DNA of 44,188 nt from Chiloscyllium plagiosum (taxonomy: Eukaryota). Below are positions 1-41,990 of the stretch, piece after piece (positions within the stretch are counted from its first letter, which is position 1; each line of letters opens with the position of its first letter). The notes under the pieces are model-generated. The model saw nothing but the letters and a program-made list of their open reading frames with translations. It ran no database searches and was not told the DNA's origin. Location of the stretch: contig NC_057718.1 of the NCBI RefSeq assembly GCF_004010195.1, forward strand, positions 70,353,382 through 70,397,569. The letters are read 5' to 3'. The position numbers and the translations under genes are program-made.

Positions 1-490
1 ACTACTGTGCCACCGTGCCGCGCACACACACACATCATCTATTGCATCCTCTGCACCCGATGTGGCCTCCTCTATATTGGGGAGACAGGTCGCCTATTGC
101 GGAGCGTTTCAGAAAACACCTCTGGGACACCCAGACCAACTAACCCAACCACCCTGTGGCTCAACACTTCAACTCCCCCTCCCACTCCACCAAGGATATG
201 CAGGTCTTTGGACTCCTCCATCACCAGTCAGCACCGCCTTCCTAACCTGCAATCTTCTTCCTGACCTCTCCGCCGACCTCTCCGTCTGACCTATCACCCT
301 CACCTTGACCTCTTTCCACCTATCACATTTCCGACACCCCTCCCCCAAGTCCCTCCTCCCTACCTTTTATCTTAGCCGGCTGGACAAACTTTTCTCATTC
401 CTGAAGAAGGGCTTATGCCCGAAACGTCGATTCTCCTGTTCCCTGGATGCTGCCTGACCTGCTGCGCTTTTCCAGCAACACATTTTCAGC
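1..490 (+). mobile_element. Penelope-like retroelement 3' fragment (GIY-YIG endonuclease remnant, 3' UTR, hammerhead motif)
   Basis: ORF 7..264 contains IIYCILCTRCGLLYIGETGR (GIY-YIG with CxxC); a shifted frame gives PVAQHFNSPSHSTKDMQV; C-rich UTR, then CTGAAGAAGGGCTTATGCCCGAAACGTC at 401-428. Confidence 0.88.
401..428 (+). ncRNA. Minimal hammerhead ribozyme motif (PLE-associated)
   Basis: CUGAAGA-A-GGGC(UUAU)GCCC-GAAA-CG-UC; conserved core, 4-bp stem II, palindromic ACGU stem III; stem I weak in this copy. Confidence 0.75.
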
Positions 491-1606
491 TAGTGGAATA
501 AAGGCAAAACTAGCCATTAGGATACAAAACTGGCTCGAAGGTAGAAGACAAAGGATGATGATGGAGGGTTGCTTTTCAAACTGGAGGCCTGTGAATGGTG
601 GTGCCACAAGGATTGGTGCTGGGTCCAGTACTTTTCATTATTTATACATTGATTTTGATGTGAACATAGGAGGTATAGTTAGTATGTTTGTAGATGACAC
701 CAAAACTGGAGGTGTAGTAGACAGTGAAGAAGGTTACCTCAGAGTACAATGGGATCTTGCTCAGCTGAGCCAATGGGCTGAGGAGTGGCAGATGGAGTTT
801 AATTTAGATAAATGTGAGGTGCTTCAGTTTGGAAAAGCAAGTCAGAGCAGGACTTAAATACTTAATGGTGAGGCCCTGGGGAGTGTTGCTGAACAAAGCG
901 ACCTCGGAGTGCAAGTTCATAGTTCCTTGAAAGTGGAGTCACAAGTAGATTGGATAGTGAAGAAGGCGTTTGGCATGCTTTATTGAGCAAAGCACTGCAT
1001 ATCGGAGTTGGGAGGTCATGTACAGGAAACAATGTACAGGACATTGTTTCGGCCACTTTTGAAATATTGCGTGCAATTCTGGTCTCCTTCCCATCAGAAG
1101 GATGTTCTGAAATTGAAAGTTCTCAGAAAAGATTTATCAGGATGTTGCCAGGGTTGAAGGATTTGAGCTATAGGGAGAGGCTGATGGGTGGTGCTGTATT
1201 CTCTGGAGTGTCGGAGGGAACACTCCAGGGAGGCTGAGGGGTGACCTTATAGATGTTTATAAAATCATGAGGGCATGGATAGGATAAATAGACAAGGTCT
1301 TTTCCCTGGGGTGGGTGAGTCCAGAACTAGGGGGCATATGTTTAGGGTGAGCATGGAAAGATAAAGGTACCTAAGAGACAACTTTTTCACAGAGTGGTGC
1401 AAGTATGGAATGAGCTGCCAGAGGAAATGGTGGAGGCTAGTACAACACAGCGTTTAAAAGGCATCTGGAAGGGTATATGAATAGGAAGGGTTTAGACATA
1501 TGGGCCAAGTGCTGGAGAATGGGACTAGATTAGATTAGGATATCTGGTCAGCATGGATGAGTTGGACCGAAGGGTTTGTTTCTGTCTTGTACATATCTAT
1601 GACTCT
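491..1606 (+). mobile_element. CR1-clade LINE, 5'-truncated and degenerate (RT C-terminal half to 3' tail)
   Basis: [44 protein letters not shown]; frameshifted; ends ...CTATGACTCT. Confidence 0.92.
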
Positions 1607-2382
1607 AAAGCCAACGTTAATTTTCATACAGAAAACTATGCTGAATATGAAGTTTCATGAAAGAGACATTTATGCATTCCCATGATATTGGTTGGTTGGA
1701 AAAGGATGGAGTGAAGCTATAGATTGTTAGTGTGTGAAATTTGTGACCCAGTTGCTTATGTAAAGAATGCAGATTATTGGTGTGAACATGTTCAGATCAT
1801 TTCAGGTCAAAAGGTATCTGTGAAACAAGTTATGAGAATGGTAAATATGGGCTATCACTTTTCAACAATCTTCTAATTTTAATATCTGAAATCTTCATAG
1901 ACGAAAGTGATTTTTTTGAAGAAGACAACACTGATCTAACATGACAGCTGTGATGACTTGGCCATGTTGAGACAGGCTCATGAAATCATCACTGAATAAG
2001 TATCAGTTTGAATCAAAAACAAAACTGTTATAAAAGGCACTAAAACTTTCTGAAAGTTATACATTGGAATACAAGTTGCCTGCAGATCATTCAACTTGAT
2101 GGGCGTGAGGGGAATGACATTAGACACCAGAATCTAAAAAAGAATTGTATTTCAAGTAATAGCTTTTGAGCAGCAAAACAAAAATAGAAAGAAAGAAATA
2201 CAAATTGATGATAATGAGAAGTTGGAAGATTCTCCCTCCCTGTATGTCTCAACGTCAAAATTGTTATCTGGTGAAAAAGTTACGTGAGACAACAGCCATT
2301 TTTGGAGCACTTAAAATCTACAAACTTCCCCACTGATGTAGAATATGAGTCTGCAATTAAACAGCTGACTATAATAATCAAT

Positions 2383-2725
2383 AGGGAGATAATGGCTTAA
2401 TGATCTTATTGCTGGACCTGAGACCCAGATAAATCCAGAGACCCAGGTAAAGTTCTGGGGACCCAGGTATAAATCCCATCCCAGCAGATGGTGGAATTTG
2501 AATTTTAAAAAAAAAGTCTGGAATTAAGAGCCTAATAATGACTGTGAATTAATTGTCAGGAAAAACTCATCTACTTCACTTAGGCCCTTTAGGGAAGGAA
2601 ACTGCCGTCCTTACCTGGTCCAATCTACTTGTGACTCCAGGCCACACAGACCCCTGGGCAATTAGGGATGGGCAATAAATGCTGGTCTAGTCAGCGATGC
2701 TCACATCCCATGAATGCATTCAAAA
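2383..2725 (+). mobile_element. SINE family 2 (degenerate tRNA-like head, LINE-derived 3' tail)
   Basis: Homologous to the reverse complement of 7128-7425; tail GGGATGGGCAATAAATGCTGG...CACATCCCATGAATG is shared with the LINE 3' ends at 19173-19390 and ~27610-27660. Confidence 0.65.
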
Positions 2726-2860
2726 GAATGACAGCCAACTTGATTTCATTGACTCATTGTCTCCATTATAAGCTTTTCTTCTTCACTGGCTTGCTATCAA
2801 CCATTCCTTTGTCTGCCTAACTTTCTTTTTCTCTCTCTGGGCTCTGTTTCAACCTAACTT

Positions 2861-2981
2861 AAAGAAGGGCTTTTGCCCGAAACGTCGATTTCACTGCTCC
2901 TCGGATGCTGCCTGAACTGCTGTGCTCTTCCAGCACCACTGATCCAGAATCTGGTTTCCAGCATCTGCAGTTATTGTTTTT
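2861..2981 (+). mobile_element. Mini PLE insertion (hammerhead stem II onward plus tail)
   Basis: AAGAAGGGCTTTTGCCCGAAACGTCG...; TSD ACCTAACTT at 2852-2860 and 2982-2990. Confidence 0.8.
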
Positions 2982-4002
2982 ACCTAACTTGAATAACTAG
3001 TTACCAACGTCATCTTATCTTTCATCATCTTATCCCTTGATTTTTATCTTTATTTTTCAAGTAATCAGCATCCTCTGGATGTCTGTCCCTAATCAATTGA
3101 AAACCAGTTTCAAGGTGTGTTTCTTTAGCTGCACTGGAGCCTGAACACTATCGTTTGACGTGAATGTGCTCTGGTGGCTACTCAAATTGTTTACATTTTT
3201 TGATCCTTTGCTGGCTCCGTGCAGTACTGGATAGTGTAACCTGCCAGGAGTTTGGGTAGGAAGATTTGGTGAAAGGAATTAATCTTTCCAATAAGCAGAG
3301 AAGGGAGGAGGCCTTTAATATTATGACTGCCACCCAGTATATAAACAACTGATGTCATAGCTTAGGGAATAGCAAGAAAAAGCAATAAAAACCAGAGACT
3401 GAGTCAAACATATTTATTTAATCACTTTGAAACACAAGATTTCCAGTGTCATAAAATAGCAAAAAATGTTTGTCTTCTGATTATTAATGCCAGATAGAAA
3501 TTGTATTTCACATGAGTATTTTGTGACTCAAGCTGGTATGCAAACATAATTTGAAAGGTAACAAAAAAATATTAATGAGAAAAAGCTCTTCAACTCTCAA
3601 TTGTATATTTTCTTTATTAACTCTGCATGGAGTAAACTCAATCATGGCGCCCTTTGTGCTGTTGTTTAGATTTATCAATACATTTTTCAGCAGTCCTCTC
3701 CAATTTTGATATGGAGACACCATTAAAAGAGGATGAAGAAAGAAAAACCAGCAAAAGTTGCAAATGATGCATACTGGACCAACTCATCCTGCATACCTCA
3801 AAATGAATCTCCAGTATAACTAGATATTTCCAAGTATTTCGTTTTTTGTTTTATTCCCCTGGAGCTGGACACCATTTGAAGAATGTGAAGGAGAAAGAGG
3901 GATATCATTTTTTTAAAAAAGAGAGAAGGGGGAACACTATTTGAAAAGGAGGTAATTTTTTTCAAAAAGAGCATGAAGTGAGCAGAAGTACCATTTAAAA
4001 GG

Positions 4003-6099: not shown

Positions 6100-7120
6100 T
6101 TAAGAAGTAGAACCTGATAGCCTATATGAGTCTTAAAAAATTGTGGCAGAAATGGTAGAGATCTTCCAAATGATGTACCAAAACTCATTAGATTCTGTAA
6201 GAGTGGACTAGAAAATAGCAAATGTAACACCTTTTTCAAGACAGGCAGGAAATAGAAAGCATCAAGTAATAGTCCAGTTATGCTACCTTATGCTGGAAGC
6301 AATTTTCAGAATCCATTATTAGGGAGATAGTAACAAGTTACTAAGAAAATTAAAATGGGATCAAGCAGAATCAACATCATTTGTGAAAGTGAAATATGGT
6401 TTAATTTATTAGCAAAGTTTGAGGAAGCAACAAGCAAGGTGGCTCAAAACAACAAAATGTTGGAGATCACAGTGGGTCAGATAGCATCCATGGGGAGAGG
6501 ACAAACTAATGTTCCGAATCTAAATGACTCTTCATCAGAGCTGAAGTCAAGGTGGCTAAAAGGGAGCCAAAGATGTGGTCTATTTAAATTTTCAAAAGAC
6601 ATTTGATAAAGTTCCACATCAAAGTTTATAAAATAAAAGTTCATGATGCAAGGGTAACAAATTAACATGGATAAAGAAATGGTTTGTTTACATGAAGAAG
6701 GGACAATGGATAAATGATTTTTTTTTTAGTTGGGAAGTTGTAACTAGTGCATTGCCACAAGGCTCAATCCTGGGTGCTTCAACTGGTCATCATCAATATC
6801 AATGATTTTAATGAAAAGACCAAATGCATGTTGGCTAAATGTATAATGACACCAAGATAGATAGGAAATAAATGAATAAAAGGAGGTAAAAAGTCCACAA
6901 ATGAATGAGCAGAAGTTTAGTAATTGGAGTATAATGTGGACAAATGTGAACTTGTCTACTCGATTACCCTTTCAGCTATTCTTCATATCAATGCAGTTTT
7001 ACTAATTTAATAGGAAATTGCGGAACACAGTGGTGGAGAGGGATCTAGGTGTCCTGGTACATCAATCTCAAAAGCATGCAGCCAGAGTAAATGATTAGGA
7101 AGGTAAATGGAATGTTGGTA
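6100..7120 (+). mobile_element. Old, highly decayed CR1-clade LINE RT fragment
   Basis: Recognisable remnants of KIANVTPF, NLLAKFEE, FSKTFDKVP, PQGSILG, DTKI motifs with many stops and indels. Confidence 0.7.
6445..6547 (-). mobile_element. 103-bp PLE-type insertion carrying a near-complete hammerhead motif
   Basis: Minus strand CAGCU-CUGAUGA-A-GAGUC(AUUUA)GAUUC-GGAA-CA-UU-AGUUUG; TSD CAAGGTGGCT at 6435-6444 and 6548-6557. Confidence 0.78.
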
Positions 7121-7607: not shown

Positions 7608-8205
7608 AAAAAAACAAAATTACTGTGAATTTTGTAAATAAGAAACAGAATGGGCAATTGTTAGGGACTAGGTTTATAATTATAATTCCAGCCTTGGCCA
7701 ACTGCCTGTGTGAGTTTGCACATTCTCCTCCTTTCTGCATGGATTTCCTCTGGGTGCTCCGGTTTCCTCCCACAGTCCAAAAGATGTGCAGGTTAGGTGA
7801 ATTGGCCATGCTAAATTGCCCATGTGTTCAGGGATGGGTACGCTCGCTGCATTAGTCAGGGGAAATGTAGAGGAGGAGTAGTAGGGAAATGGTTCTCGGA
7901 TGGAACCACTTTTGGCGAGTCGGTGTGGACTTGTTGGGCCAACACTGTAGGGTTTCTATGATTCTAGAAACAGAAATTGCTGGAAAAGCTCAGCAGGTCT
8001 GGCAGTATCTGTAGAGAGACATCAAAGTTAACGTTCAGGATCAAGACACTCTTCCTCAGGACTGATGGTAGCTGGAAAGTCTTCTGCATATAAAGCAACA
8101 TTTTCCTAGTTACCATCAACTACGAGGAAACATTAACACTGATTTCTCTCCACAGATGCTGCCAGACCTGTTGAGCTTTTCCAGCAGTTTCTGTTTTTGT
8201 TGTTG
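7608..8205. mobile_element. Palindromic (inverted-arm) PLE terminal structure, interrupted by an HE1 SINE
   Basis: 7967-8030 is the inverted repeat of ~8131-8198; perfect 15-bp TSD GTTATGAATTATTGA at 7593-7607 and 8206-8220; hammerhead remnants in both arms. Confidence 0.82.
7651..7965 (+). mobile_element. HE1-type V-SINE, 5'-truncated
   Basis: V-domain GAGTTTGCACATTCTCC...GGTGCTCCGGTTTCCTCCCACAGTCCAAAAGATGTGCAGG; TSD AGAAACAGAA at 7641-7650 and 7966-7975. Confidence 0.88.
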
Positions 8206-8840: not shown

Positions 8841-10018
8841 TCACAACATCCTTTGGCACTATCCACAACTCTGCCTAGTGTCATCCACAAATGTACTACC
8901 CCATCCTTCTACACTCACATTCAGATCATTTATAAAAATGGCAAACAGCAGTGGTCCCAAAATAGATCTTTGCAGCACACCACTGGTAACTGAGATCCAA
9001 GATGAACATTTCCATCAACCACCAACCTCTATCGTCTTTCAGCTAGCCAATTTCTGATCCAAACCGTTAAACCACCTTCAATCCTAAAACTCTGTATTTT
9101 GTGTAATAGCCTACCGTGTGAAACTTATCAAACGCCGTACTGAAGTCTAAATACACCACATCAACCACTTTACCTTCATCCACCTGTTTTGTCACCTTCT
9201 TGAAGAACTCAATAAGGTTAGTGAGTGTTAACTACCCCTAATCAAATTGTTCCTTTCCAGATTATTATAAATCCAATCTCATACAACCTTTTCCAACACC
9301 TTAACCACAACTGACGTAAGGCTCACTGGCTATAATAATCAGGGTTGGACTAGAAGCACTTAATGAATACATTTTGCCAATATTCCCTTTGGAAAAGGGC
9401 AATGTCAGTGAGATTGCAGAGATATAGGCTCACTGGCCTATAATTACCAGGGCTGTTCCAACTCCCCTGCTTAAACAAGGGAACAGCATTTGCTATCCTC
9501 CAGTCTTCTGGCACTACTCCTGTCGACAACGATGACATAAAGATCAAAGGCAAAGGCTCTGTAATCTCCTCCCTGGCAGAGGGTCTTATCTATTTTAAGA
9601 TCTTCCAAAATTGTTTTCACCTCCTCTTTGTCAACTGCAATCCTATCTAATCTAGTAGCCTGTATCTTGGTATTCTCACTAACATTGCCTTTTTCCAATG
9701 TGAATACTGGCAAAAAGTATTCATTAAATACTTCTCCTACATCCTCAGATCCCACACACAACTTCCTACTACTGTCTTTAATTGGCACTAATCTTACTCT
9801 AGTCATTTTTTTATTCCTGATATACCTATGGAAGGCCTTAGGATTTTCCTTGTTCCTATCCGCCAACAACTTCACATGTCCCCTCCCTCCTGGCTCTTCT
9901 TAGCCCTCTCTTTAGATCTTTTCTGCCTAACTTATAACTCTCAAGCCCCCTAACTGAGCCTTCATGCCTCATCCTCAGATACGTCTTCTTTCTCTTGACA
10001 AGAGTTTCAACTTCTTTA

Positions 10019-10102
10019 ATGGAAATGTGTTGCTGGAAAAGCGCAGCAGGTCAGGCAGCATCTAGGGAACAGGAGAATCGACGTTTCGGGCACTAGCCCT
10101 TT
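10019..10102 (-). mobile_element. Mini PLE insertion starting within the hammerhead core
   Basis: Minus strand AAGGGCTAGTGCCCGAAACGTCGATTCTCC...; TSD CTTCTTTA at 10011-10018 and 10103-10110. Confidence 0.8.
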
Positions 10103-10931
10103 CTTCTTTAGTAAACCATGGCTCCCTCTCGACAACTACCTCCCTACCTGATAGGTATATAGTTACCAAGGACTTGCAATAGCTGTTCTTTGAATGAGCT
10201 CCACATTTCAAGTGTGTTCACCCCCTGCAGTTTCCTTCCCCATTCTATGCATCCTAAATCTTGTCTAATCACATCATAATTGCCTTTCCCCAGTAATACT
10301 TCTTGCCCTGCGGTATATACCTATCCCTGCCCATCGCTATTGTAAACATAAGTGAATTGTGGTCACTATCGCCAAAGTGCTCACCTACCTCTAAATCTAA
10401 CACCTGGCCGGGTTCCTTCCCCAGTACCAAATCCAATATGTCATCGCCCCTTGTTGGCCTGTCTACATACTGTGTCAGAAAACCCTCCTGCACACATTGA
10501 ACAAAAGATGACCCATCTAAACTACTTGAACTATAGTGTTCCCAGTCAATATTGGGGAAGTTAAAGTCCCCCATAATAACTATCGTATTACTCTTGCTCC
10601 GATCGAGAATCATCTTTGCTATCTTTTCCTCTACATCCCTCGAACAATTCGGAGGTCTATAAAAAACTCCCAACAGGGTGCCCTCTCCTTTCCTGTTTCT
10701 AACCTCAGCCCAAACTACTTCAGTGGATAGGTCCTCAAACTATCTCACCTGCTGTAATACTACCCTTGATTAACAATGCCACCTGCCCCCCCCACCCTGC
10801 TTTTTTACCATTTTCTCTGTTCTTACTGAAACATCTAAACCCTGGAATCTGCAACATTCCTGTCCCTCCTCTAGCTATGTCTCTGAATTGGACACAACAT
10901 CAAAATCCCAGGGTAAAATTGGCCTGGAATA

Positions 10932-12931: not shown

Positions 12932-13046
12932 GGCAAAAGCCCTTCATCAGGAATTCCTGATGAAGGGTTTTTGCCCGAAACGTCGATTTCGAAGCTCCTT
13001 GGATGCTGCCTGAACTGCTGTGCTCTTCCAGCACCACTAATCCAGA
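12932..13046. mobile_element. Back-to-back PLE termini with hammerhead motifs (palindrome centred on GAATTC)
   Basis: GGCAAAAGCCCTTCATCAG-GAATTC-CTGATGAAGGGTTTTTGCC; complete core at 12957-12984. Confidence 0.85.
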
Positions 13047-14856
13047 ATCAAAATCCCAGGTACCAACCCATGAGACAAGTTCACCCACCTTATTCCAGAT
13101 TCTCCTGACAATGAAGTACACACATGTCAAACTAAAATCCTGATTGCCAGTGTCCCCTCGTGACCTTGTAAACCTATCCCTGACTTCACTACCCCCACCT
13201 TCTTTACACTGGAACTATAATTCAGGTTCCCATCCCCTTGCAGCATTAGTTTAATCCCCACACCCAAGGAGCATTAGAAAATTTCTCTCCCACGATATTG
13301 GTACCCTTCTGATTCAGATGAAGACTATCCTGTTTGTAGAGGTCCCACCTTCACCAGAAAGAGCTCTAATTATCCAAGAATCATAAAACCCTCCCTCCTG
13401 CACCATTGCTGCAGCCACATGTTCAGCTCCGCTCTCTCCCTGTTCCTCGCTTCACTAGCACACGGCATATAGATTCTGACAGGTCCATTTATCCAGTTAA
13501 GATTGTGGGATCATGTAAAAAGATGTATGAATAATTGCTTAATTCCACCGACATCCTGGTGTTGACTCTGCAATTATGGCTTGAAATACAGTAACTGTTC
13601 TGGCTTTTGAGATGATATAATGGAGAATAATTGAAAGTCATATTGTTTCAATTTTAATTATTTTCTCTGCAGTTTTTGACACTTATGATTTTTTATGTTT
13701 CTTCTCCATTTTATTTTTAAATTTGTGTTTTAACATTTCAAAGAACTGTTAACATAGCCAGACTATGACTAATGTACAAATGTTTTTATTTATGACCTTC
13801 ACTTTTAGATATCAGGAGCATTTGACAAAGCATCCTGTCTCATGAATAGGAATAAAGCATTGCATTTGACAACAATCCAGCCAGGAACTTCTCAAATCTA
13901 AAGCTGCTCCACATTGAAGTTGTTACTGGCATAGGAAGGTACAACATACTTCTCTGTTCAGATGTAACAAACATAGTGCATCACAACAGCTGACATCGGT
14001 ACCTGAGTTTGGATCCTGTATTTTATGTTTTAACAAGAAAATTTAAATCAAATTAAAAACAAAACTTTAATCTGACACACCACATGAATATTTCATCATG
14101 ATTCCTACGTACCAGGTTCCAATTTGCGAAAAGATACAAAATCTCAAGCCAAAAGTTGTAAATCAGTTTGGTGCATTAATAGCAGGAAAGTCATTCTTCA
14201 CTATAGTTCAGAATTTGTGAGAGGAGCGCCCGAAGTTTTAATTAAAGACTCTATTAAACACTGAACTGGTTCCTACTCTACAGCTTTCATGTGTTTTGTA
14301 TTTGATCTTGCACTTCTGAATCATAATAAGATCAACCTGAATAACTATTAATTCGAGCAATGTTGCTTCAGAGCTTTAGAGATTTTGTTATAAAATAATG
14401 CCATTCTGAGCAGTGGGCTTACAGTTGATTACAACACGCTTGCCTTTACAAACTGCAGCTGTTTGTAACTGGTAGGCTTAATTTCTGCTCTTTATCTTCA
14501 AACTAATGAACGGTTTATTTTCTGCAATCTATATGAATTTAGCTGGTCAAATTTTACATAAAGAGTACCATGTTGCATATAATATGCTGGAATTAAATGC
14601 TAGAAAGAGTTCAAATTTCAAGCAGGTACAGAAATCAAATATAAAACTCCTTTTTTCCATTTGTTTTCATGCATTTATATACATCAGGAATATAAATCTT
14701 GATATCCCATTAAAAACAGTTCTGCTCTTCTTATTCATAAACATTTTTGTGTAAATATAACTACGATGTTGCAAACTTTGTACAACCTTAGCTTTGTAAA
14801 CATTACTTTCTTATTTTGTAGGGAGAAGAAACAAACTGAAGTGTTCTGGATGGGGC

Positions 14857-16643: not shown

Positions 16644-17858
16644 GCGTGGGTCAAAACATAGTGGGGGGGCATGGACCTAACAAGGGAGTTGCGGGCCTTA
16701 TGGTCTCTGTGGGGTGTGGATAGGTGTGGGATGGGAAATATATCCCTGTGGTGGAGACTGTTTGTAGATGGCAGAAATGGCGGTGAATGATGCACTATGT
16801 CCGAAGGTTGAGGTGGAAGGTGAGGACCGCGGAGGGGAGGGGTGGGGGGGGTTGGGGTTCTGTCTTTGTTGCAATTGGAGGGGTAGGGTTCAAGGGCTGA
16901 GGTGCGGGAATTGGAGAAGATGCGTTGAAGGACATTGTTGACCATGAGGGACGAGACATTGTGGTCCTTGAAGCAGGAGGCCATCTGAGATGTTCAATGA
17001 TGTAATTGGTCCTCCTTGGAGCATATGCAGTGGAGGCTGAGGAATTGGGAGTAAGGCATTGTGTTTTTATAGGAGGGTAGGTGGGAAGAGGTGTAGTCCA
17101 GGTATCCCTCCACCAGAGATATATTTCCCTCCCACTCCTATCTGCTTTCCACAGAGACCATTCCCTCCGTGATTCCCTTGTTAGGTCTATGCCCCCCACC
17201 GCAAGAGGTGTAAAACCTGCACCTACACTTTCTCCCTCACCTCATCCATATCCGGCAGAGATTTTCCTGCACCTCCACACGTCATCTACTGTGTCCATTG
17301 CTCTCAATGCGGTCTCCTCTAAATTGGACACCCTGTGGCCGAACACTTTAACTCCCCCTCCCACTCTGCCAAGGACATGCAAGCGCTAGACCCCCACCAC
17401 AGCCAAATTCTAGTCACCCGATGCACGGAAGAAGAATACCTCATCTTCCACCTTGGGACCCTCCAACTACATAGCATCAACATTGATTTCACCAGTTTCC
17501 TCATCTCCTCTCCACCCACCTTATCTCAGATCCAACCCTCCACTCGGCACCGCCCTATTGAACTGTCCTATTTGTCCATCTTCCTTCCTACCTATCTGCT
17601 CCACCCTCTGCTCCGACCTGTCACCATCACCCCAACCTTCATCTACCTATCGCATTCCCAGTTACTTTCCCCCAGCCGCACTCCCTTGCCATTGATCTCT
17701 CAGCCCCCTTGCCCACCCCCACACCCACATTCCCGATGAAGAGCTTGTGCTTTAAATGTCAATTGTCTTCCTCTCGGATGATGCCTGACTGGCTGTGCTT
17801 TTCCAGCATCACATATTTTGACTCTGATCTCCAGCATCTGCAGTCCCCAGCTTCACCT
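16644..17858. mobile_element. PLE with inverted 5' segment (minus part ~16660-17085; plus part ~17100-17858)
   Basis: ~16662-16757 is the reverse complement of ~17107-17199; AEHFNSPSHSAKDMQAL..EEYLIFHLGTLQLHSINIDF (GIY-YIG C-terminus); TSD AGCACATTG at 16635-16643 and 17859-17867. Confidence 0.85.
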
Positions 17859-19561: not shown

Positions 19562-19696
19562 CCATTTCCTGAAGAAGGGCTTATGCCTGAAACGTCGATT
19601 CTCCCGCTCCTCGGATGCTGCCTGGCCTGCTGTGATTTTCCAGCACCACATTTTTCAACTCTGGTACTCCAGCATCTGCAGTCCTCACTTTTTCCC
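19562..19696 (+). mobile_element. Mini PLE insertion with hammerhead core, inside a CR1 3' tail remnant (19388-19710)
   Basis: CTGAAGAAGGGCTTATGCCTGAAACGTC at 19569-19596; TSD TCTGCTTCAA at 19552-19561 and 19697-19706. Confidence 0.82.
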
Positions 19697-19920: not shown

Positions 19921-20180
19921 AAATAAGAATGCACCATCAATATCCAAAGATGGCTTCATTTTTAAACCTCTCAATCTTACACTGCTAGTACACTACAACA
20001 CACATATATATTACATTGACAATAAACATGCAAACATGCACTACTACATTCTGTCTCAGACCATTTACTTCTGCCACCGAACACTTCCATTTCTCATCTA
20101 AGATTTGACAATGCGTCGGCAATCACGTTTCACCATCCTGCCACATGCACAATTTTCAAATTGAATGGCTATAACAACAA

Positions 20181-20260
20181 GTGCTGAAAATGTGTTGCTG
20201 GAAAAGCGCAGCAGGTCAGGCAGCATCCAGGGAACAGGAGAATCGACGTTTCGGGCATAA
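20181..20260 (-). mobile_element. Mini PLE tail inserted in the RNase H region
   Basis: Near-identical to the reverse complement of 412-490; starts in the hammerhead stem II loop. Confidence 0.82.
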
Positions 20261-20699
20261 GTACCACCTAAACAGTCTGGAATTTCTTGTCCTTCAATTT
20301 CTCCACAAACTTCAATGTACATGATTGTCTCAGATACATTACTGAGATACATTACATAAACGTTGAAATATTCTAACGCCAACACCAAGCTCAAAGTCTC
20401 CTTCTCAATGGTCAAATATTTTTGTGGATGAATGTTCAATGTCCTGGAGAAATATTGATAAGTCTTTCAATCTTCTTGCTGTCTTCCTGCAAGAGCACAG
20501 CACCGACACCCACATCACTTGCATCGATAGTCCGTACACAAAGCCATTCGAGGTGGCTAAGTGTGGCTAACACTGGGGCAGTGATTAACACTGCTTTCAG
20601 GCTGTCAAATGCCTTCAGACAGTTCGCTGTCCACTGAAACTTCTTGCCGCTAAAATTTGGTATGAATTTCCAATAAAATCTATTCAATCCCAGGAATTA

Positions 20700-22305: not shown

Positions 22306-22344
22306 TGTATGGTTTGGAGGTGCCATTGCAGGACTGAGGTGTAC

Positions 22345-22470
22345 AAAGTAAAAAATCACAATACACCAGGTTCTTGTCCAACAGATTTATTTGGAAGCAC
22401 TAGCTTTCAGAGCACTGTTCCTTTATCAGGAGGTTGTGGAATATAAGAATGTAAGGCACAGAATTGTAGT
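22345..22470 (-). mobile_element. PLE tail (same family as 27927-28732) with decayed hammerhead motif
   Basis: Minus strand CCTGATAAAGGAACAGTGCTCTGAAAGCTAGTGC...AATAAA; homologous to 27927-28050. Confidence 0.78.
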
Positions 22471-25112: not shown

Positions 25113-25666
25113 GAGAAAGTGAGGACTACAGATTCTGGAGATCAGAGCCGAGAGTGTGGTGCTGGAAAAGCACAACCAGTCAGGCACCATCTGAGGAGCA
25201 GGAGAATCGACATTTCGGGCAAAAGCCCTTCATCAGGAATGAGGCTTGTGAGCCGATGGATTGGAAAGATAAATCGGAGTGGGGTGGGGCTGGGGGGAAG
25301 GTAGCTGAGTGCGATAGGTAGATTAAGGTGGGGGTAATGGTGATAAGTCAGAGAGGGGAGTGGAGCAAATAGGTTGCAAGGAAGATAGACAGATAGGATG
25401 GGTCATGAGGGTGGTGCCAAGTTGGAAGGTTAGATCTGAGATAAGGTGGGGGAAAGGGAAATCAAGATACTGGTGAAATCCACATTAATCCCATGTGGTT
25501 AGTGGGTCCCAATGCGGAAGATGAGGTATTCTTCTCCAGGTGTCGGTTGGTTAGGGTTTGGTGATGGAGGAGGCCCAGGACCTGCATGTCCTTGGCAGAG
25601 TTGGAGGGAGAAGTGTTGGGCCACGGGATGGTGGGGTTGGTTGGTGTGGGTGTCCCAGAGACATCC
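25113..25666 (-). mobile_element. PLE 3' fragment (GIY-YIG C-terminus, UTR, hammerhead at 25209-25236)
   Basis: SAKDMQVLGLLHHQTL; 14-bp TSD ATA(T/C)TCTAAGTGTG at 25099-25112 and 25667-25680. Confidence 0.88.
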
Positions 25667-26888: not shown

Positions 26889-27003
26889 AAGAAAGTGAAG
26901 ACTGCAAATGCTGGAGATCAGAGTCAAAATGTGTGGTGCATTAGGTCAGGCAATATCCGAGGAGCAGGAGAATCGACATTTCAGTCATAAGCCTGACAAA
27001 GGC
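26889..27003 (-). mobile_element. Mini PLE insertion
   Basis: PLE tail homology; perfect 14-bp TSD TTACAAAGATCTTG at 26875-26888 and 27004-27017. Confidence 0.8.
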
Positions 27004-27926
27004 TTACAAAGATCTTGGTCCATCGCTGCTCTTGCCTTTCTCAATAACCTGGGTTAGATACCATCAGGCCCTGGGGAACTTATCCTCATTAACATTCATT
27101 AAGAGACCCAACATTACTTCTTTCGTGATCTCAAAATGCCCTAACATATTTGCATGTTCCATAGTAATGTCACTATCCTCTATACTTTCTCATAGTTAAA
27201 TACTGATACAAAGTACTCATTTTGTGCCTTCAAGCACAAGTTCCCTCCTTTATCTTTGAGTGGTCCTACCTTCTCCCTCGTTATCATATTGTTTTTAATG
27301 TATGTATAGAATGCCTTGGGATTTTCTTTAAGTCTAATTGCCAAGGTAATTTCATCACCCTTCCTTGTTCTCCTAATTCCCTGGAGTTTTTGCCTATTTT
27401 ATTTATATTCATCACAGGCCCTGTCCAATTTTAACTTCCTAAATCTTACATATGCAAGGTAGGAGGAGACCTTGCAAGCGGTGGCATCCCCTTGTTTCTG
27501 CTGACTTGGTCGAGCTATAGGTATAAGCAGCCATGGGTTTGGAAGATGCTGTCTTAGGAACCTTAGTGAATTCCTGAAATGCATCCTGTATTTTTGTACT
27601 CATAGATCATGGGCAGCACTAGTTGGCCAACATTTATTGCCCATCCCTAGTTTCCCTTGAGAAGGTAGTGGTGAGCTACCTTCTTAAACCACTGCAGTCC
27701 TGCAGTTGACCCCAAATGCTGTCAGGGTGGGAATTCCAAAATTTTGACCTAGTGACAGTGAAGGAATGGCGATTTATTTCCAAGTCAGGATAGTGAATGG
27801 CTGAAGGGGAATTGCAGGTGGTGGTGTTTCCATGTATCTGCTGTCCTTGTCCTTCTAACTGGAAGTAGTTGTAGGTTTGGAAGCTGCTGTCTTGGTGAAT
27901 TTCTGCAGTGCATCTTGCAGATAATA

Positions 27927-28732
27927 GTTAAAAATCACCAACACCAGGTTATTGTCCAACAGGTTTATTTGTAAGCACTAGCTTTCAGAGCGCCGCTCCT
28001 TCATCAGGTGATTGTGAAGTATAAGATCATAAGACATATAATGTAGAGCAAAAGATTGCAGTGTCATACATTGATATATTGAACAAACCTGGATTGTTAA
28101 GTATTTCATCTTTTAGAAAGCAGGTTTTGGTTCATTAATATGTAAATCCCAGAACATTTTTTAAGTCACCTTCTCAAGATAACTTAAGGTTTTATAACAA
28201 AAAGTGACATCTAAGCTCAGACAATGCAATGTAAGGTCAGAGTCTGTTTGTATCCCAATCTTGAGTCAAATTGGTTCTATTTCCAATGTGGAATTTACAA
28301 AATATTACATGGATAGACTGCTTGCATTTACTGCTTGCAGATTGTGCATTTTTGAGCAAAATAAAATATATCAGTAAATGTAATTCTGCAAATACAAATT
28401 CACCCTATAGACTTATATGTGTGTGCGTGCGTGCGAGAGACAGAGAGAGAGATTGCGCATATGAGTGTGTGTATTTGTGTAAAGTGGGTGTCTGGTGTGA
28501 TGGAGTATAAGCATGTGAGAGGGTATGTGCATGCGCGAGAGTGTGGGGGGGGTATGTGTATGTGTGTATGAGAGAGAGCGTTTATATGAGAGTAGGTCTG
28601 CATGAGTGTGTAAGACTGTGTGAGTTGTGTGCATAATAGAGAGTATATAATGTAGTTGGGTCACTGTAGTGCAACATGAACCCAAGATCCCAGTTGAGGC
28701 CATCCTCATGGGTACCAACAGACTCTGACCTT
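27927..28732 (-). mobile_element. PLE 3' fragment with CA-rich 3' UTR, hammerhead (27976-28010) and AATAAA
   Basis: Minus strand GTHEDGLNWDLGFMLHY (GIY-YIG C-terminal GLN motif); CAC-CUGAUGA-A-GGAGC(GGC)GCUCU-GAAA-GC-UA-GUG. Confidence 0.82.
28415..28645. repeat. Degenerate (GT/GA)n low-complexity tract within the PLE UTR
   Basis: GTGTGTGCGTGCGTGCGAGAGACAGAGAGAGA... GTATGTGTATGTGTGTATGAGAGAGAG. Confidence 0.8.
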
Positions 28733-32800: not shown

Positions 32801-32880
32801 CATAGATAGTCAGCTCTGAACCAAGTGCAGGTGAATGAGATTAGTGTGTTTGGTGCACCGAATGATCTATGCTGTATAAT
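29880..32880 (+). mobile_element. Old long CR1-clade LINE (ORF1 esterase end, endonuclease, RT), heavily decayed
   Basis: LYKLDRLHLN (~29975-30005), CFNARCL, ITETQLKERQDWQFNI, GDFNF, YARLLWEAREEIAG, DNYRPV, EFNPSKCELMHF. Confidence 0.85.
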
Positions 32881-33214: not shown

Positions 33215-34121
33215 TAGAATGGTTAGGTCGAGAGTGTGGCGCTGGAAAAGCACAGCAGGTCAGGCAGCATCCGAGGAACAGGAGATTCGACTTTTTTGGG
33301 CATAAGCCCTTCATCAGGAATGATGGTTGTGGGTTGAGAGGCTGAGAGATAAATGCAAGGGAGTGGACCTGGGGGGAAGATAGCTGAGAATGTGATAGGT
33401 AGGTGAAAGTGGGGGAGAAGGTGATAGGTCAGAGAGGAGGGTGGAGTGGATAGATGAGAAGGTTGATAGATAGATCAAGAGAGTGGTGCTGAGTTGGAGG
33501 CTTGGGACTAGGTTAAGATGGGGGAGAGGGGAAATGAGAAAACTAGTGAAATCCACATTTATCCCGTGTGCTTGCAGGGTGCAAGATGGAAGATAAGGCG
33601 TTCTTCCCACAGGATCGGATGGTTTGGGTTTGGCCCAGGACCTGCATGTCCTTCTTGGAGTGGGAGGGAGAGTTGAAATGTTCAGCCATGGGGCGATGGA
33701 GTTCATTGGTGTGGACATCCCAGAGAAGTTCTGACACGATCTGCAAGTTAGCGTCTTGTCTCCCCGATGTAGAGAGACCACATCGGGTGCAATGGATACA
33801 AGTAAATGACGTTTGTGGGGGAACAAATAGATTTCTGTCAGATGTGGAAGGATCCTTTGGGGCATTGGAAGGAGGTGTGGACACAGATTTTGCATTTCCT
33901 GCAGTGGCAGGGGAAAGTGCCAGGAGTGGGGTGAGGGCTGCTGGGGAAGCGTGGATCTGACAAGAGAGTCATGGAGGGAATGGTCTCTCTGAAACACTGA
34001 TAGGGGTGGGAGGAAAATATATCCCTAGTGGTGAGGTCTGTTTGTAGATGGCACAAGTGACGGAGGATGATGCGATGTACACGGAGGTTAGTGGGATGAA
34101 ACGTGAGGACCATGGGGGTTC
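33215..34121 (-). mobile_element. PLE 3' fragment (Cys linker plus GIY-YIG, hammerhead at 33289-33317)
   Basis: VLTFHPTNLRVHRIILRH, PGTFPCHCRKCKIC, TCIHCTRCGL, PMAEHFNSPSHSKKDMQVLG. Confidence 0.9.
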
Positions 34122-34996: not shown

Positions 34997-35431
34997 TTAG
35001 ATTCCCTACAGTATGAAACAGGCCATTCGGCCCAACAAGTCCACACCGACCTCCGAAGAGTAACCCACCCAGACCAATTTCCCTACCCTACATTTACCCC
35101 TGACTAATGCACCTAACACTATGGGCAATTTAGCATGGCCAATTTTTAAAAAGCTGTACTCTTTTTGAATGCAAAATATTCCTAAACTTTTATATAACCC
35201 ACCCAGACCAATTTCCCTACCCTACATTTACCCCTGACTAATGCACCTAACACTATGGGCAATTTAGCATGGCGAATTCACCTGACCTGCACATCTTTGG
35301 CCTGTGGGAGGAAACTGGAGCACCCAGAGGAAACTCATGGAGACAATATGCAAACTCCACACACAGTCACCTGAAGCAGGAATCAAACCCAGCTCCCCGG
35401 TGCTGTGAGGCAGCAGTGCTAACCACTGAGC
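34997..35431 (-). mobile_element. HE1-type V-SINE with internal duplication and templated insertion
   Basis: Reverse complement of HE1; 84-bp duplication 35061-35144 / 35195-35278. Confidence 0.9.
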
Positions 35432-36438
35432 CTAAAGGATGTTCCTCCTTTTCCAATTCTAGAAATATTTAAACTGTTAACTATTGCGAAATTAAAGCTA
35501 AATGATGAACTTGTAGTGAATCATACAGTTTAAAGATAAGATTTTGTACAGTGCTTGCGCATGATTGATTTTATGTGTTTTTACTTAATTATGTTTCTTT
35601 TCATTGCAATTAAGTTGACAAAAACAACCATTATAACTAAATTCAGTAAACATAAGTTGGTTTGCTGTCCCAGTCTTATGATTGCATTTTATACAAGTAT
35701 CCTGGTAGAAATTATTTGTATTCTGTGTTGATACATAATGGCAATCAAAGACTGAAATATCTCACCTTTAACTTAGTACAAGTACAATAAAATTTAGGGA
35801 GGAGCAAATCAGTTTAGACAATTCATGCTTTTGTTGCTATAAAGGTTTGCTGAACAGTGCCTAGAAATATGATGACTTAAAGTGCTCTGTAAGTTATAAA
35901 AGTTTAGGAATATTTTGCATTCAAAAAGAGTACAGCTTTTTAAAAAACATTTTCTCCCTTCCCCTGTACTAGAGGGCTTGGTTCTGTTTTCCTGTTACTA
36001 AAATGCACATCCATAGCTTTGCAGAGTATAGTAATGATTGGAACTCAATGCAAGATGATGATGAGACCTCTCCCCATCCCTTCTCTCTTTTGTCTGTACT
36101 CACTCAAGTCCAAGCCTATTATGGGCAGGAAGAATTTTAATCCACAGGATATTTACTGTTTGTATCAAGAATTGGTACATCCAAACTACCAAAATGAGCC
36201 ACAACTAATGTCAGAATTTTCTCTTCCCAGGGATAATTTGCCCTGATCTAGGCTATCAATTAAAATGAACTAACCTGAGCAAAGACCCAGGTTAAGGATT
36301 TCATTTTGATTTCTATGACTCAAAGTTGACCTTATCTTTGCATCCTTCTAAATCAATGTTAATTATTATTTTTTCAATACCAAGCAAATCCTGCAGAATC
36401 ATTTTTTAGAACCTATGCTTTTCTTTATTTTTACTTAG

Positions 36439-36579
36439 TTTGGTACAAGTATGGTGAGTGCATCACTACTCAACCTACATTTGAGTTGTCTTTCATTTCC
36501 TTCCAGAGTGTGCAGATACCACCTGGAAAATTGGTATGCTATGAATGAGGGATTATATTTATGGTTCGACCTGTTAAAG
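36439..36579 (+). CDS. Candidate internal exon(s) of an unidentified host gene
   Basis: Acceptors TTTTTACTTAG|36439 and TTTCATTTCCTTCCAG|36507; donors 36453|GTGAGT and 36579|GTGAGA; 141-nt open frame FGTSMVSASLLNLHLSCLSFPSRVCRYHLENWYAMNEGLYLWFDLLK; lies in non-repetitive DNA. Confidence 0.4.
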
Positions 36580-36681
36580 GTGAGATTCCTAAAAAGAACA
36601 TCTTAAACCACTTCTTTTTGACATCTTATTTAATATAATTCTAATGCAGAGTCATATCTGGTTTCTAAACTATTCATAAGG

Positions 36682-36968: not shown

Positions 36969-37014
36969 AATAGAAACAAGTATAGTTACAGCGCAGTGCA
37001 GGTCCTTTGGTCCA

Positions 37015-38570: not shown

Positions 38571-39386
38571 CATTGTTAAGTCTGTTCAGGATTGGATCTC
38601 CTGGGACCATATTAAATTAATCTGATCTCAGTGTAGACGTGTACCTTCCCTACTGTTCAACCTTTCAAGTAACTAATTCTTGCAAGGGAGGTTCATGAGC
38701 TCAGTAACCTCAGTGATCTTTCCTGGGTGGGACCAATAAAATTAGTCAGGTGGTAGATAAGCAATGCAAATTGCTTTTCCTACTTCAAACCAGTGCAAAT
38801 GAGTCCTAAGTTGCAAGGAGGTTGTGAAAAATATCTAGAGTCATTTATGACATAGCAAGAGGCCATTCAGTCCATCAGATTCATGCTAGCTGTCCACAGA
38901 TCAATCTAGTCAGTCAAAATTCATAACTCAGTCTTTAAAAACCAAAATAATTGTGGATGCTGTAAATCAGAAACAAAAGCAGAAATTGTCAGAAAAGCTC
39001 AGCAGGTCAGGTGGCATCTGCAAAGAGAAATCAAAGTTAACATTTCAGGTCAGATGACCCTTTCTCAGAACTGATGGTAGCTAAGAAAATCTTTTTTTAT
39101 GCAGAAGATGGGGTGGGGGAAGGGGGTAAGGAGTAAACGATAGGTGATTGGGATAGAGCCCAAAAATGTTTGCAACGGTTGGACAGAAAGAGGAATAGAT
39201 AATGATCTGGCTAGGAGGGTGAATATAACTGTTAATGGAGACTGTTAGTGGCTAATAATCCCCTCCACTTCCTTGTCCATCTCCTGCAGGGACCGTTCCC
39301 TCTGGGCCACCCTGGTCCACTCTTCCTTCGCTCCTAATAAACCCCCACAGCCCCATGGCACCTTCCCCTGCAACTGCAGAAGAATA

Positions 39387-39968
39387 ACAAAGAAGAACAA
39401 AGAAAATTTACAGCCCAGGAACAGGCCCTTCGGTCCTTCAAGCCTGAGCCGATCCAAATGTACTGTCTAAACCTGTCAGTCAATTCTTAAGCATTTGTAT
39501 CCCTCTGCCCCCCACCTACTCATGCATCTGTCCAGACGCATCTTATATGAATGTACCTTGCCTGCCTCTACCAGCTCTGCTGGCAACGTGTTTCAAATGC
39601 CCACCACCCTCTGTGTAAAGTACTTGCCGCGTGTATCCCCCTTAAACTTTCCACCTCTCACCTTGAAAACATGACCTCTTGTTATTGAATCCTTCACCCT
39701 GGGAAAAAGCTTGTCTCTATCCACCCTGTCTATACCCTCCATGATTTTTAAACCTCAGTCAGGTCTCCCCTCAATCTCCTTTTTTCTAGTGAAAATTAAC
39801 CTAACCTACTCAACCTCTCTTCATAGCTAGCACCTTCCATACCAGGCAACATCCTCGTAAACCTTCTCTGCACCCCCTCCAAAGCGTCCACATTCTTTTG
39901 GTAATGTGGCGACCAGAACTGTTCACAGTATTCTAAATGAGGCTGAACCAATGTCTTGTACAATTTTA
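39387..39968 (-). mobile_element. CR1-clade LINE 3' fragment
   Basis: Closely similar to 14857-15441, same (AAAGAAC)n tail. Confidence 0.93.
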
Positions 39969-39969
39969 G

Positions 39970-40230
39970 AGGAGAAAGTGAGGTCTGCAGATGCTGGAGA
40001 TCAAAGTTGAAACTTTATTGCTGGAACAGCACAGCAGGTCAGGCAGCATCCAGGGAACAGGAGATTCGACGTTTCGGGCACAGGCCCTTCTTCAGGAATG
40101 AGCAGAGAAGCAGAGAGTGTTCAGCAGGAGAAGATAAAAGGTAGGGAGGAGGGACTTGGAGGAGGGGCGTTGGAAATGTGATAGGTGGAAAGAGGTCAAG
40201 GTGAGGGTGATAGGTCGGAGTAGGATGGAG
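39970..40230 (-). mobile_element. PLE tail with intact hammerhead core (40068-40095)
   Basis: Minus strand CUGAAGA-A-GGGC(CUGU)GCCC-GAAA-CG-UC. Confidence 0.82.
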
Positions 40231-40319
40231 GCACTAACGGTCTCCATTAATAGCTATTCACCCTCCTATCCAGATCGCTATTCATTCCTTTGTCTGTCTA
40301 ACAGTTCTGCTCTGTGTTT

Positions 40320-40652
40320 GGGACGGCACGGTGGCTCAGTGGTTAGCACTGCTGCCTCAAAACACTGCTGCAGTTAGCACTGCTGCCTGGCACCAGGGTC
40401 CCAGGTTTGATTCTGGCCTTGGGTGACTGTGTGGAGTTTGCACGTTCTCCCAGTGTCTGCGTGGGTTTCCTCGGGGTGTTCCAGTTTCCTCCCACAGTCC
40501 AAAGATGTGCAGGTCAGGTGAATTGGCCGTGCTAAATTGCCCATAGTTTGGGGGCATTAGGGAAATGGGACTGGGTGGGTTACTCTTCAGAAGGTCAGTG
40601 TGGACTTATTGGGCCAAAGGGCCTGTTTCCACACTGTAGGAAATCTAATCTA
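40320..40652 (+). mobile_element. HE1-type V-SINE with stuttered head
   Basis: GGGACGGCACGGTGGCTCAGTGGTTAGCACTGCTGCC, with CACTGCTGC repeated three times. Confidence 0.92.
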
Positions 40653-41990
40653 AATCACCTATCATTTACTCCTTACCCTATCTTCTGCATAAAAACCAAA
40701 ATTTTTCTAGCGAACATCAGTTCTGAGGAAGGATCACCAGACATGAAACATTAACTCTGATTTCTCTTTACAAATGCTGCCAGATCTGCTGATCTTTTCC
40801 AGAAATTTCTGTTTTTATAATTCAGTCTTTGTAGCCCTGTAGGTTTATTTTCTTCAAGTATTCATCCATTTTCTTTTGAAAGTATTGTTTCCTCATCTTC
40901 ATCTTACATTGAGCTCCATGTCATTACCACACTGTGCAAAACTATCACAATGCATTTCTTACTCAGATTTTGCACCCACATTCACTCAATCCTTGATAAT
41001 CAGCTAATTAGACAAGCTTTTCTTTGCCTACTTAATCTAAATTTATCATAAACTTGTACACCAATTTCACCTCAATCTCTTTGATCCAAAGAGAACAGCC
41101 CCAACATTTCCAACCAAGCCTTTAAGTAAACACTGGAACCTTCCTAGTAAATTTCAAAATCCTTCACATATTTTGTCAAGTGTAGTGAGCAGCAATAGTT
41201 GAGAGAGAATGTGAGTTTTATAAAGGTTCAGCATAATTCCCCTGCTTTTGTACTCACTCCCTCTATTTATGAAGGCCATGGTTTGCTGATCATCCTTATA
41301 CTGATCAACATTTACATTCACATTGCAAGGTTTATTAACAACTATTTATTAGGCCCTATTATTCTTATATATCTCAACTCTCCATTCATAAATTTACAAC
41401 TGGTGTTATACAATGATGAATATTTTATCCCTATTGATAGCTGTTTCCAGGACCCTATCAGCTGATGCTGTTCAATATCATACACACTAGTTAGGAGATT
41501 TCATTTGTGCTACAGATCAACAAGGAAGGGGAAAATGTCATGTTAATAGATATCTTAGGCTCTTGTGACAGAATTTTTTGAATGTAAACTCAAGTGAAAG
41601 AGACAAACTCACTGTTAAAATATACTAAACCTAGGACATGCATTTTCTTTAGTATTAGTGACCATGGATTTTTGAACTGCTGGTCTAACTCAATAGTGGT
41701 GCAATTGTGCAGGCACACACAAAGAGTATCATACTTTCTGAGAAATAATCATGTGAATATGTTTCATCCTGTACAGTTAATTAAAATATTGCCATCAATT
41801 AATAAACCTGAGAGAAACAATAGAGTACTTCCCAGTTTGTGCCTCTTATAAAGGGTCCCACCTCTATCCTTACTACTGATTCACAGAGGGGTGTGGCTCA
41901 CATTTTGTTTTCTAATCATCACATGCATTCAAGGTTATGCAAGGAAGTTACGACACCAACAAAAAAATATGCAAGTTGACATTTGTTGTT

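What the first reader, a model, noticed from the sequence alone, without database searches (positions are those of the whole stretch)
401..40761. About 17 minimal hammerhead ribozyme motifs in at least four co-varying families
Seen: CUGANGA-A-[stem II]-GAAA-[2 nt]-UH recurs at 401-428(+), 12957-12984(+), 19569-19596(+), 25209-25236(-), 27976-28010(-), 33289-33317(-), 40068-40095(-), 6506-6543(-), ~39037-39075(-), 40716-40761(+), with decayed or truncated copies near 2861, 8027, 10079, 17733, 20245, 22398 and 26976. Stem II co-varies between families (GGGC/GCCC, GGAGC/GCUCU, GAGUC/GAUUC, GGGUC/GACCU) while loops vary (UUAU, UUUU, CUGU, UAGU). Stem I also co-varies (CAC/GUG, AGUU/AACU, AGCU/AGUU). 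Stem III is reduced to a palindrome (ACGU or AGCU), and an extra A follows A9. Known: Penelope-like elements carry minimal type I hammerheads thought to cleave as dimers. Inference: these are shark PLE ribozymes at roughly one per 2.5 kb, some possibly still competent.
Basis: partly seen in the sequence, partly recalled or inferred. Interest (0 to 1): 0.75.

Follow-up and report, generated by a model that had tools for sequence, protein, structure and literature searches.

The report
Penelope jumping-gene hammerheads, start-site stubs
These are real but mostly decayed copies of the tiny hammerhead self-cutting-RNA motif already known from Penelope-like jumping genes; many copies begin just before the motif, about 30 bases after a TATA-like box, so the motif is likely the capped front of the element's RNA, and copying likely used uncut RNA.

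Summary
The motifs are real: 6 strict minimal hammerheads in the window versus 0 in 20 shuffles. Eleven are one family (A), two B, three C, one an older variant. They are pseudo-LTR ends of Penelope-like retrotransposons: GIY-YIG fragments lie upstream of five window copies, one with a Neptune-type cysteine linker. Density is genome-wide: one copy per ~3.4 kb, roughly 250,000 strict motifs. Core letters are 94% identical across six families, stems 35%. One family outside the window has a U3-A8 core. All this matches Cervera and De la Pena 2014. Extra: 5' ends pile up 2-12 nt before C3 (115 of 195 versus 11 of 80 in the next 11 nt), ~30 nt after TATA-like boxes, with an extra G in family A1. 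This likely marks a capped transcription start. A cut-site pile-up was not established; cleavage is untested. This scan noted the same readings before on other DNA, including this genome. Verdict: new member of a known kind.

The parts
27..246 (+). Broken GIY-YIG endonuclease fragment of a family A Penelope-like element
   Evidence: tblastn with a related copy, E 1e-23; translation
397..491 (+). Family A1 minimal hammerhead (C3 401, predicted cut after C428) plus short tail; intact core. A of the Inr-like TCATTCC at 397
   Evidence: RNA reads show 95 loose ends before 397
2864..2999 (+). Family A stub, 5'-truncated inside the core, long tail
6504..6542 (-). Older-family hammerhead remnant, A13 changed to G, stem I AGCU/AGUU
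7960..8203 (.). Family C fold-back: decayed copy on - (C3 8059, one A of GAAA missing) and core-deleted inverted partner on + (~8118-8203)
10014..10104 (-). Family A stub truncated inside the core
12932..13061 (.). Family A inverted pair joined at a GAATTC centre: intact-core motif on + (C3 12957, starts at -4) and partner on - cut by an assembly gap
16859..17845 (.). Family A element with inverted 5' part (RT-thumb fragment on -), EN fragment on + and decayed motif (C3 17733, two core changes)
19565..19690 (+). Family A stub starting 3-4 nt before C3 (19569); intact core, G10.1-U11.1
20176..20261 (-). Family A stub truncated in loop II
22315..22465 (-). Family B copy, G8 changed to A
25123..25660 (-). 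Family A copy with EN fragment; motif 25205-25240, intact core, AUGU palindrome
26900..26991 (-). Family A stub truncated in stem II
27897..28713 (-). Family B copy: short EN C-terminal match (28675-28713), 3' region, motif 27975-28011 with intact core, CUA triplet, CAC/GUG stem I
33225..34119 (-). Family A copy with RT thumb, C-x4-C-x2-C linker and EN; motif 33285-33321 with G12 changed to A
38954..39390 (-). Family C copy; motif 39035-39072 with G8 changed to A
39982..40235 (-). Family A3 copy; motif 40064-40099 intact with perfect 4-bp stem I
40675..40835 (+). Family C copy with TATA-like remnant; motif 40719-40756, stem II and palindrome broken

Best explanation
The motifs are minimal type I hammerheads in the terminal repeats of several Penelope-like retrotransposon families, and most copies are short, likely inert stubs that were likely made when reverse transcription began in the tail ~60-100 nt past the motif and ran off the capped 5' end of an uncut RNA predicted to start ~4 nt before the catalytic core. 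Shown: the motifs, their link to RT/EN fragments, cross-family core conservation, the two 3' ends, the 5'-end pile-up, the TATA-like boxes and the extra G in A1. Inferred: a Pol II start at the hammerhead's first stem; cap-templated G; priming of both target strands giving the inverted pairs; purifying selection acting on source elements, not on dispersed copies. From the literature, untested here: cleavage as a dimer through the ACGU/AGCU palindrome, probably protein-assisted. A cut at the 5' motif would remove the capped first ~32 nt.
For: PLE link: in a 1.16-Mb random sample, 18 of 27 EN hits lie <1.2 kb upstream of an A tail on the same strand, 1 upstream of B, 8 unlinked; 2 of 2 hits of a second EN type lie upstream of B. 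DKG and LPKIHK motifs and a C-x4-C-x2-C linker are present. Conservation: core 94% versus stems 35% and ungapped tail 32% across six families; non-CpG departures from the family majority in A are 43/1067 at core versus 627/5430 in the tail. Family F has U3-A8 in 1,001 exact copies versus 20 C3-A8, 5 U3-G8 and 1 C3-G8. 3' ends are bimodal at about +50-65 and +90-100 from the cut, like the two RT start sites and optional tail in PMC11167929. 5' ends: 115 of 195 copies reaching -2 stop within -2..-12, versus 11 of 80 in the next 11 nt (p 2.5e-12). TATAAA lies 29-32 nt before the common end in B, C and F; A has TTTTATC and an Inr-like TCATTCC (promoter consensus recalled). Extra G: 77 of the first 100 of 5,062 A1 copies with a non-consensus base at -5 have G; 25 of 35 among unrelated flanks (my count; p 6e-8). 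156 of 335 copies have an inverted partner.
Against: No cleavage, cap or start site was measured. No full-length element with two pLTRs was recovered; the long hits were N-gaps. Pfam scores are below curated cut-offs (RVT_1 25.8 versus 29.6 bits; GIY-YIG E 0.022). The extra G is not seen in family F (6 of 17, p 0.40; my count). The pile-up is not significant for F alone (p 0.16) and borderline for C (p 0.054). D shows no pile-up (0 of 8) and E little (2 of 9). Family A, the most abundant, has no canonical TATA. The hammerhead dimer fold is 9-17 kcal/mol less stable than the cofold minimum at the six intact sites. Requiring copies to align past -2 may inflate the within-family core figure.
Confidence: 0.8

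Rival explanations
1. The stubs are a separate non-autonomous, SINE- or retrozyme-like mini-element copied from short master loci, so their common 5' end and G are simply the master's sequence.
For: Very high stub numbers. Non-LTR retrozymes are reported in one chondrichthyan and derive from pLTRs (10.64898/2026.07.22.740005). A direct repeat of two D motifs 226 nt apart occurs in L078.
Against: The same boundary recurs in four unrelated families at their own TATA-like spacing. Stub sequences match those of long EN-bearing copies, and upstream flanks are unrelated to each other. Window copies are solitary or inverted, not tandem.
Confidence: 0.12
2. The 5' pile-up reflects reverse transcriptase stalling or hairpin-guided joining at the hammerhead structure, not an RNA 5' end.
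For: Ends also rise inside the core (A: 44 of 142 between +14 and -1). About half the copies are inverted pairs joined at short palindromes or microhomologies.
Against: A stall is expected at the 3' side of a helix, not after the whole motif is copied (inference). Stops drop about tenfold just past -12. The extra G also occurs in non-inverted copies.
Confidence: 0.15
3. The boundary is a 3' splice site, as in D. virilis Penelope, where an intron ends at helix I.
For: PMC4209133 reports that arrangement. Family F has a pyrimidine tract plus AG there.
Against: Non-inverted copies share no upstream exon (by eye). A and B lack an AG at the boundary, and F copies keep the AG.
Confidence: 0.05
4. 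The hammerheads cut efficiently in vivo and the cut RNA (or its circle) is a main template, as in the rolling-circle model.
For: 8-10 of 177 random A copies begin at 1.1-1.3 (by eye), a weak post-hoc bump. Core conservation implies selection.
Against: In young A1, about 9 of the first 100 of 812 rows are junctions at the cut, versus about 53 of 100 of 102 rows at a control site 5 nt upstream. Scaled, that is about 125 versus 75, not clearly different, against 5,062 rows at the start-site position (patterns differ). F: 1 of 48 near the cut. PMC11167929 found unprocessed RNA to be the dominant substrate. Stubs say little about how full-length copies arise.
Confidence: 0.15

Closest known systems
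Minimal hammerheads (min-HHR) in pLTRs of metazoan Penelope-like elements (Cervera and De la Pena 2014, PMC4209133; parts 1-2 of 4 read, 2 supplement files searched, file 1 not searched)
   Same: Type I topology, unpaired nucleotide after A9, G10.1-C11.1, palindromic remnant of stem III, many covarying families, mostly solitary truncated copies, a U3-A8 variant, presence in fish Xena/Poseidon/Neptune elements.
   Different: No shark named in the parts read or the searched supplements. About 250,000 strict motifs are estimated here versus about 4,000 (coelacanth) and 9,000 (Xenopus), with different descriptors. The 5'-end pile-up and TATA spacing are not described in the parts read.
Poseidon element PAc of Anolis carolinensis (PMC11167929; passages read)
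   Same: Internal RT initiation at two sites giving an optional 30-40 nt tail; both target strands primed; hammerhead near the element's 5' part; unprocessed RNA used as template.
   Different: Families A-C look Neptune-type (cysteine linker seen in A). The searched text has no 'TATA' or 'transcription start'. Activity was shown there, none here.
Complex EN+ PLE insertions: pLTR, adjacent inverted 5'-truncated copy, tail (Craig et al. 2021, PMC8557442; passages read)
   Same: 5' truncation, inverted partner, tail, Neptune CX2-5CxxC linker.
   Different: Here the typical insertion is only ~100-140 nt per arm, with a preferred 5' boundary at the hammerhead.
Non-LTR retrozymes (10.64898/2026.07.22.740005; parts 1-3 of 5 read, supplements closed)
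   Same: pLTR-derived type I hammerheads, reported in one chondrichthyan.
   Different: Defined as tandem repeats with a hammerhead per unit; the window's copies are solitary or inverted.

Membership tests
Minimal type I hammerhead (min-HHR) | Core boxes CUGANGA and GAAA with UH, in type I order | tested here: met
   6 strict sites versus 0 in 20 shuffles; 83 versus 2 in a reversed control over 1.16 Mb
Minimal type I hammerhead (min-HHR) | Extra nucleotide between 9 and 10.1; G10.1-C11.1; palindromic stem III remnant | tested here: met
   Of 58 hits: 57 with the extra base, 42 G-C and 11 G-U, 49 palindromic
Minimal type I hammerhead (min-HHR) | Covarying stems around a conserved core across families | tested here: met
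   Core 155/165 versus stems 73/210; stem I double changes; U3-A8 family
Minimal type I hammerhead (min-HHR) | Self-cleavage after NUH as a dimer | not testable with these tools
   No assay; the dimer fold is not the energy minimum
Rfam hammerhead families | Covariance-model hit | tested here: not met
   No hammerhead hit at E<=10; the motif has no proper stem III
EN+ Penelope-like element | RT followed by C-terminal GIY-YIG endonuclease upstream of the 3' pLTR | tested here: met
   Fragments in order in L054, L064, L065, L072 and window 33225-34119; Pfam hits below cut-off. Strong for A; weaker for B, C, F
EN+ Penelope-like element | Full ORF flanked by two pLTRs, each with a hammerhead | tested here: inconclusive
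   All 14 long-frame loci examined were gapped or broken
EN+ Penelope-like element | 5' truncation, inverted partner, optional 30-40 nt tail | tested here: met
   156 of 335 copies inverted; bimodal 3' ends
Neptune clade | CX2-5CxxC linker between RT and EN | tested here: met
   C-x4-C-x2-C in window 33580-34120(-), family A; Nematis shares this feature
Neptune clade | Placement in an RT phylogeny | not tested
Non-LTR retrozyme | Tandem units each with a hammerhead | tested here: not met
   No same-strand adjacent pair among the window copies

The most novel reading that the evidence does not exclude
In these elements the hammerhead is the first ~32 nucleotides of a capped Pol II transcript, with its first stem doubling as the initiator. 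Self-cleavage would then be a self-decapping switch, and the hundreds of thousands of stubs are run-off copies of uncut, capped RNA: a genomic map of Penelope start sites showing that cut RNA is rarely copied from the 5' end.
Probability: 0.4. Interest if true: 0.55.

Novelty: new member of a known kind. Interest (0 to 1): 0.3.

Why it matters
The finding as given is a published kind in a new host group, at unusually high copy number. The role of PLE hammerheads is stated to be unclear (PMC8557442). The start-site geometry gives a sharp, testable handle: if the motif heads a capped transcript, cutting would remove the cap rather than only trim tandem precursors. Six covarying families, one with a natural U3-A8 core, make a ready panel for dimer and protein-assisted cleavage assays.

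Tried and rejected
Rfam scan: no hammerhead hit. The bare two-box pattern is at chance level. The protein search was off-frame, and its long 'open frames' were assembly gaps, so no intact element and no overlapping ORF was found. Cut-site footprint: inconclusive. Extra G in family F: not seen. Run search: no RNA holder listed. Laying two single-cell polyA runs of one sample (about 2% and 6% read): 1,611 reads from X19 on both strands, 96% running on into unlike sequence, none from X20, and no place where many molecules begin or end. These reads come from copies embedded in other transcripts and say nothing on start or cleavage. The sigma-70 scan was irrelevant to a Pol II promoter. Putative host exons on + were translated but not identified. 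Literature searches: Penelope+hammerhead+shark gave 4 papers, none on shark elements by listing or passage; Penelope+pLTR+TATA+hammerhead gave 0; Penelope+Neptune+shark+retrotransposon gave 0; U3-A8 gave only PMC4209133. Lunse et al. (PMC5785218) is not held. The library lacks most subscription papers and Repbase/Dfam.
Full report
Observation. A strict minimal-hammerhead descriptor finds six sites in the window (C3 at 401+, 12957+, 19569+, 25236-, 28007-, 40095-) and none in 20 shuffles. The two boxes alone are at chance level (9 versus 5.0), and Rfam has no hammerhead hit. Four of the ten 'full' sites are damaged: 33317 (G12 to A), 39068 (G8 to A), 6538 (A13 to G) and 40723 (stem II and palindrome). 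Eleven sites are one family, A, whose subfamilies differ in loop II; two are B, three are C, and one is an older variant. 'At least four families' is therefore fair, but the sites are not 17 independent ribozymes.

What they are. GIY-YIG endonuclease fragments lie upstream on the same strand of window copies 401, 17733, 25236, 33317 and, as a 13-residue match, 28007. Copy 33317 also keeps an RT-thumb piece and a C-x4-C-x2-C linker, which PMC8557442 gives for Neptune and Nematis elements. Elsewhere in the genome, RT pieces with DKG and LPKIHK motifs precede A motifs. Pfam gives RVT_1 at E 1e-5 and GIY-YIG at E 0.022, both below cut-off; 2 of the 4 queries had no hit. In 1.16 Mb of random stretches, 18 of 27 EN hits lie within 1.2 kb upstream of an A tail, 1 upstream of B, and 8 are unlinked. 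For C, 2 of 20 loci show upstream EN; for F, 2 of 20 show RT or EN pieces, one of them inverted. No full-length element was recovered: all 14 long-frame loci were gapped or broken. The host looks like a shark from recalled repeat resemblance only.

Abundance. One A 30-mer pattern has 48,069 exact matches in the 3.56-Gb genome; B has 5,034, C 349 and F 1,001. Tail profiles find 224 copies in 773 kb, one per 3.4 kb. Strict C3-G8 motifs number 83 in 1.16 Mb against 2 in a reversed control, which scales to about 250,000. The window is ordinary for this genome.

Selection. Across six family majorities, core positions are 155/165 identical, stem positions 73/210, and the ungapped tail 120/375. In A, non-CpG departures from the majority are 4.0% at the core and 11.5% in the tail. 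This mixes subfamily differences with decay and may be inflated by my alignment filter. Only 65 of 107 A copies that reach past the core keep all 11 core letters, so the dispersed copies decay. All four stem I pairs show double-sided changes in nine hand-picked copies (relatedness inflates this test). Family F, absent from the window, has U3-A8 in 1,001 copies against 20 C3-A8, 5 U3-G8 and 1 C3-G8. I infer selection on source elements for the hammerhead fold.

Copy ends. Copies were ascertained by the tail only: 335 A, B, C and F copies scoring 20 or more. Fifteen gap-cut copies and the window's own were dropped, and F includes copies from 30 loci. 3' ends fall in two groups, about +50-65 and +90-100 from the cut, like the two internal RT start sites of the anole element (PMC11167929). 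156 of 335 have an inverted partner. 5' ends pile up just before the core: 115 of 195 copies reaching -2 stop within -2..-12, against 11 of 80 in the next 11 nt (p 2.5e-12; A 62/98, B 16/36, C 14/20, F 23/41; F alone p 0.16). D (0 of 8) and E (2 of 9) show little or none. Long copies carry TATAAA 29-32 nt before the common end in B, C and F; A has TTTTATC and an Inr-like TCATTCC (consensus recalled). Among A1 copies with a non-consensus base at -5, G occurs in 77 of the first 100 of 5,062 rows, and in 25 of 35 rows with unrelated flanks (my count; p 6e-8). An extra G at full-length L1 junctions is ascribed to the mRNA cap (PMC11702581, passage). Family F shows no G excess (6 of 17). RNA reads from one run show the same junction (95 loose ends before 397) but come from embedded copies on both strands and do not map a start.

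Cut site. By eye, 8-10 of 177 random A copies begin at 1.1-1.3. In young A1, about 9 of the first 100 of 812 rows are junctions at the cut, versus about 53 of 100 of 102 rows at a control position. Scaled, that is about 125 versus 75, with wide error. A cleavage footprint is not established; if present it is far rarer than the start-site stop.

Mechanism. Shown: motif, PLE context, conservation, end patterns. Inferred: Pol II starts at the first stem of the hammerhead; the element protein starts reverse transcription in the tail and runs off the capped end, giving 100-140-nt stubs; priming on both target strands gives the inverted pairs. From the literature: min-HHRs cut weakly and only as dimers (PMC4209133); the anole one needs the element protein and is not required for insertion in vitro (PMC11167929); 1 of 9 Xenopus dimers cut (10.64898/2026.07.22.740005). 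Here the dimer fold is 9-17 kcal/mol above the cofold minimum at the six intact sites, and window copies have no same-strand neighbour, so they are likely inert. Rivals: a separate mini-element, stalling at structure, a splice acceptor, or cut RNA as main template.

Known versus new. Cervera and De la Pena 2014 describe the motif type, the extra nucleotide, the palindrome, the families, and the U3-A8 swap (parts 1-2 of 4 read; no shark term in 2 searched supplement files, file 1 not searched). The 2026 preprint reports retrozymes and PLEs in one chondrichthyan (parts 1-3 of 5; supplements closed). The whale shark paper lists Penelope (passage). D. virilis Penelope has a TATA-less internal promoter (PMC2377424, passages). 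Searches found no paper on shark PLE hammerheads or on a start site at the motif; the library is incomplete, and Lunse et al. was seen only as a reference. This scan holds 770 earlier notes with these words, including the start-site, extra-G and U3-A8 readings in this genome; they are not independent evidence.

Verdict. Real; a new member of a known kind; interest 0.3. The most novel open reading is a hammerhead that forms the capped front of the transcript and would decap it on cutting (probability 0.4).

Noticed in passing
L133-L152; L143:1497-1536(-): Family F (not in the window) has a U3-A8 core in 1,001 exact copies and a self-complementary AGCU/AGCU stem I.
   Followed up: yes
L097:5693-5734(+), L074:518-559(+), L078: Families D and E have a longer stem II, an extra U after A9, a TATA-like box about 50 nt upstream (seen in E) and no clear 5' pile-up. 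Two D motifs lie 226 nt apart on one strand in L078, retrozyme-like.
   Followed up: partly
window 430-470(+), 40760-40790(+); L133-L152 tails: The tails of A, C and F share an ATG-containing stretch; in C and F it follows a pyrimidine tract and CAG. It may be a start codon, a splice acceptor or the RT-binding hairpin.
   Followed up: no
window ~2140-2280, 3700-3770, 13810-13940, 14822-14860, 36509-36580 (+): Short exon-like stretches suggest the window lies in introns of an unidentified host gene on +.
   Followed up: partly
window e.g. 8553-8840, 21330-21650, 26107-26410, 40322-40655; 500-1610, 10960-12390, 30100-32880: Many copies of a tRNA-headed SINE (HE1/V-SINE-like) and CR1/L2-type LINE fragments; names recalled, not tested.
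   Followed up: no
window 35075-35160 and 35198-35275 (+); 35132-35190 and 35872-35930: A short local duplication inside a SINE, and an inverted match between about 35132-35190 and 35872-35930, seen by eye.
   Followed up: no
window 16690-17850: A longer family A insertion with its 5' part inverted, joined near 17103: the classic PLE inverted arrangement at larger scale.
   Followed up: partly
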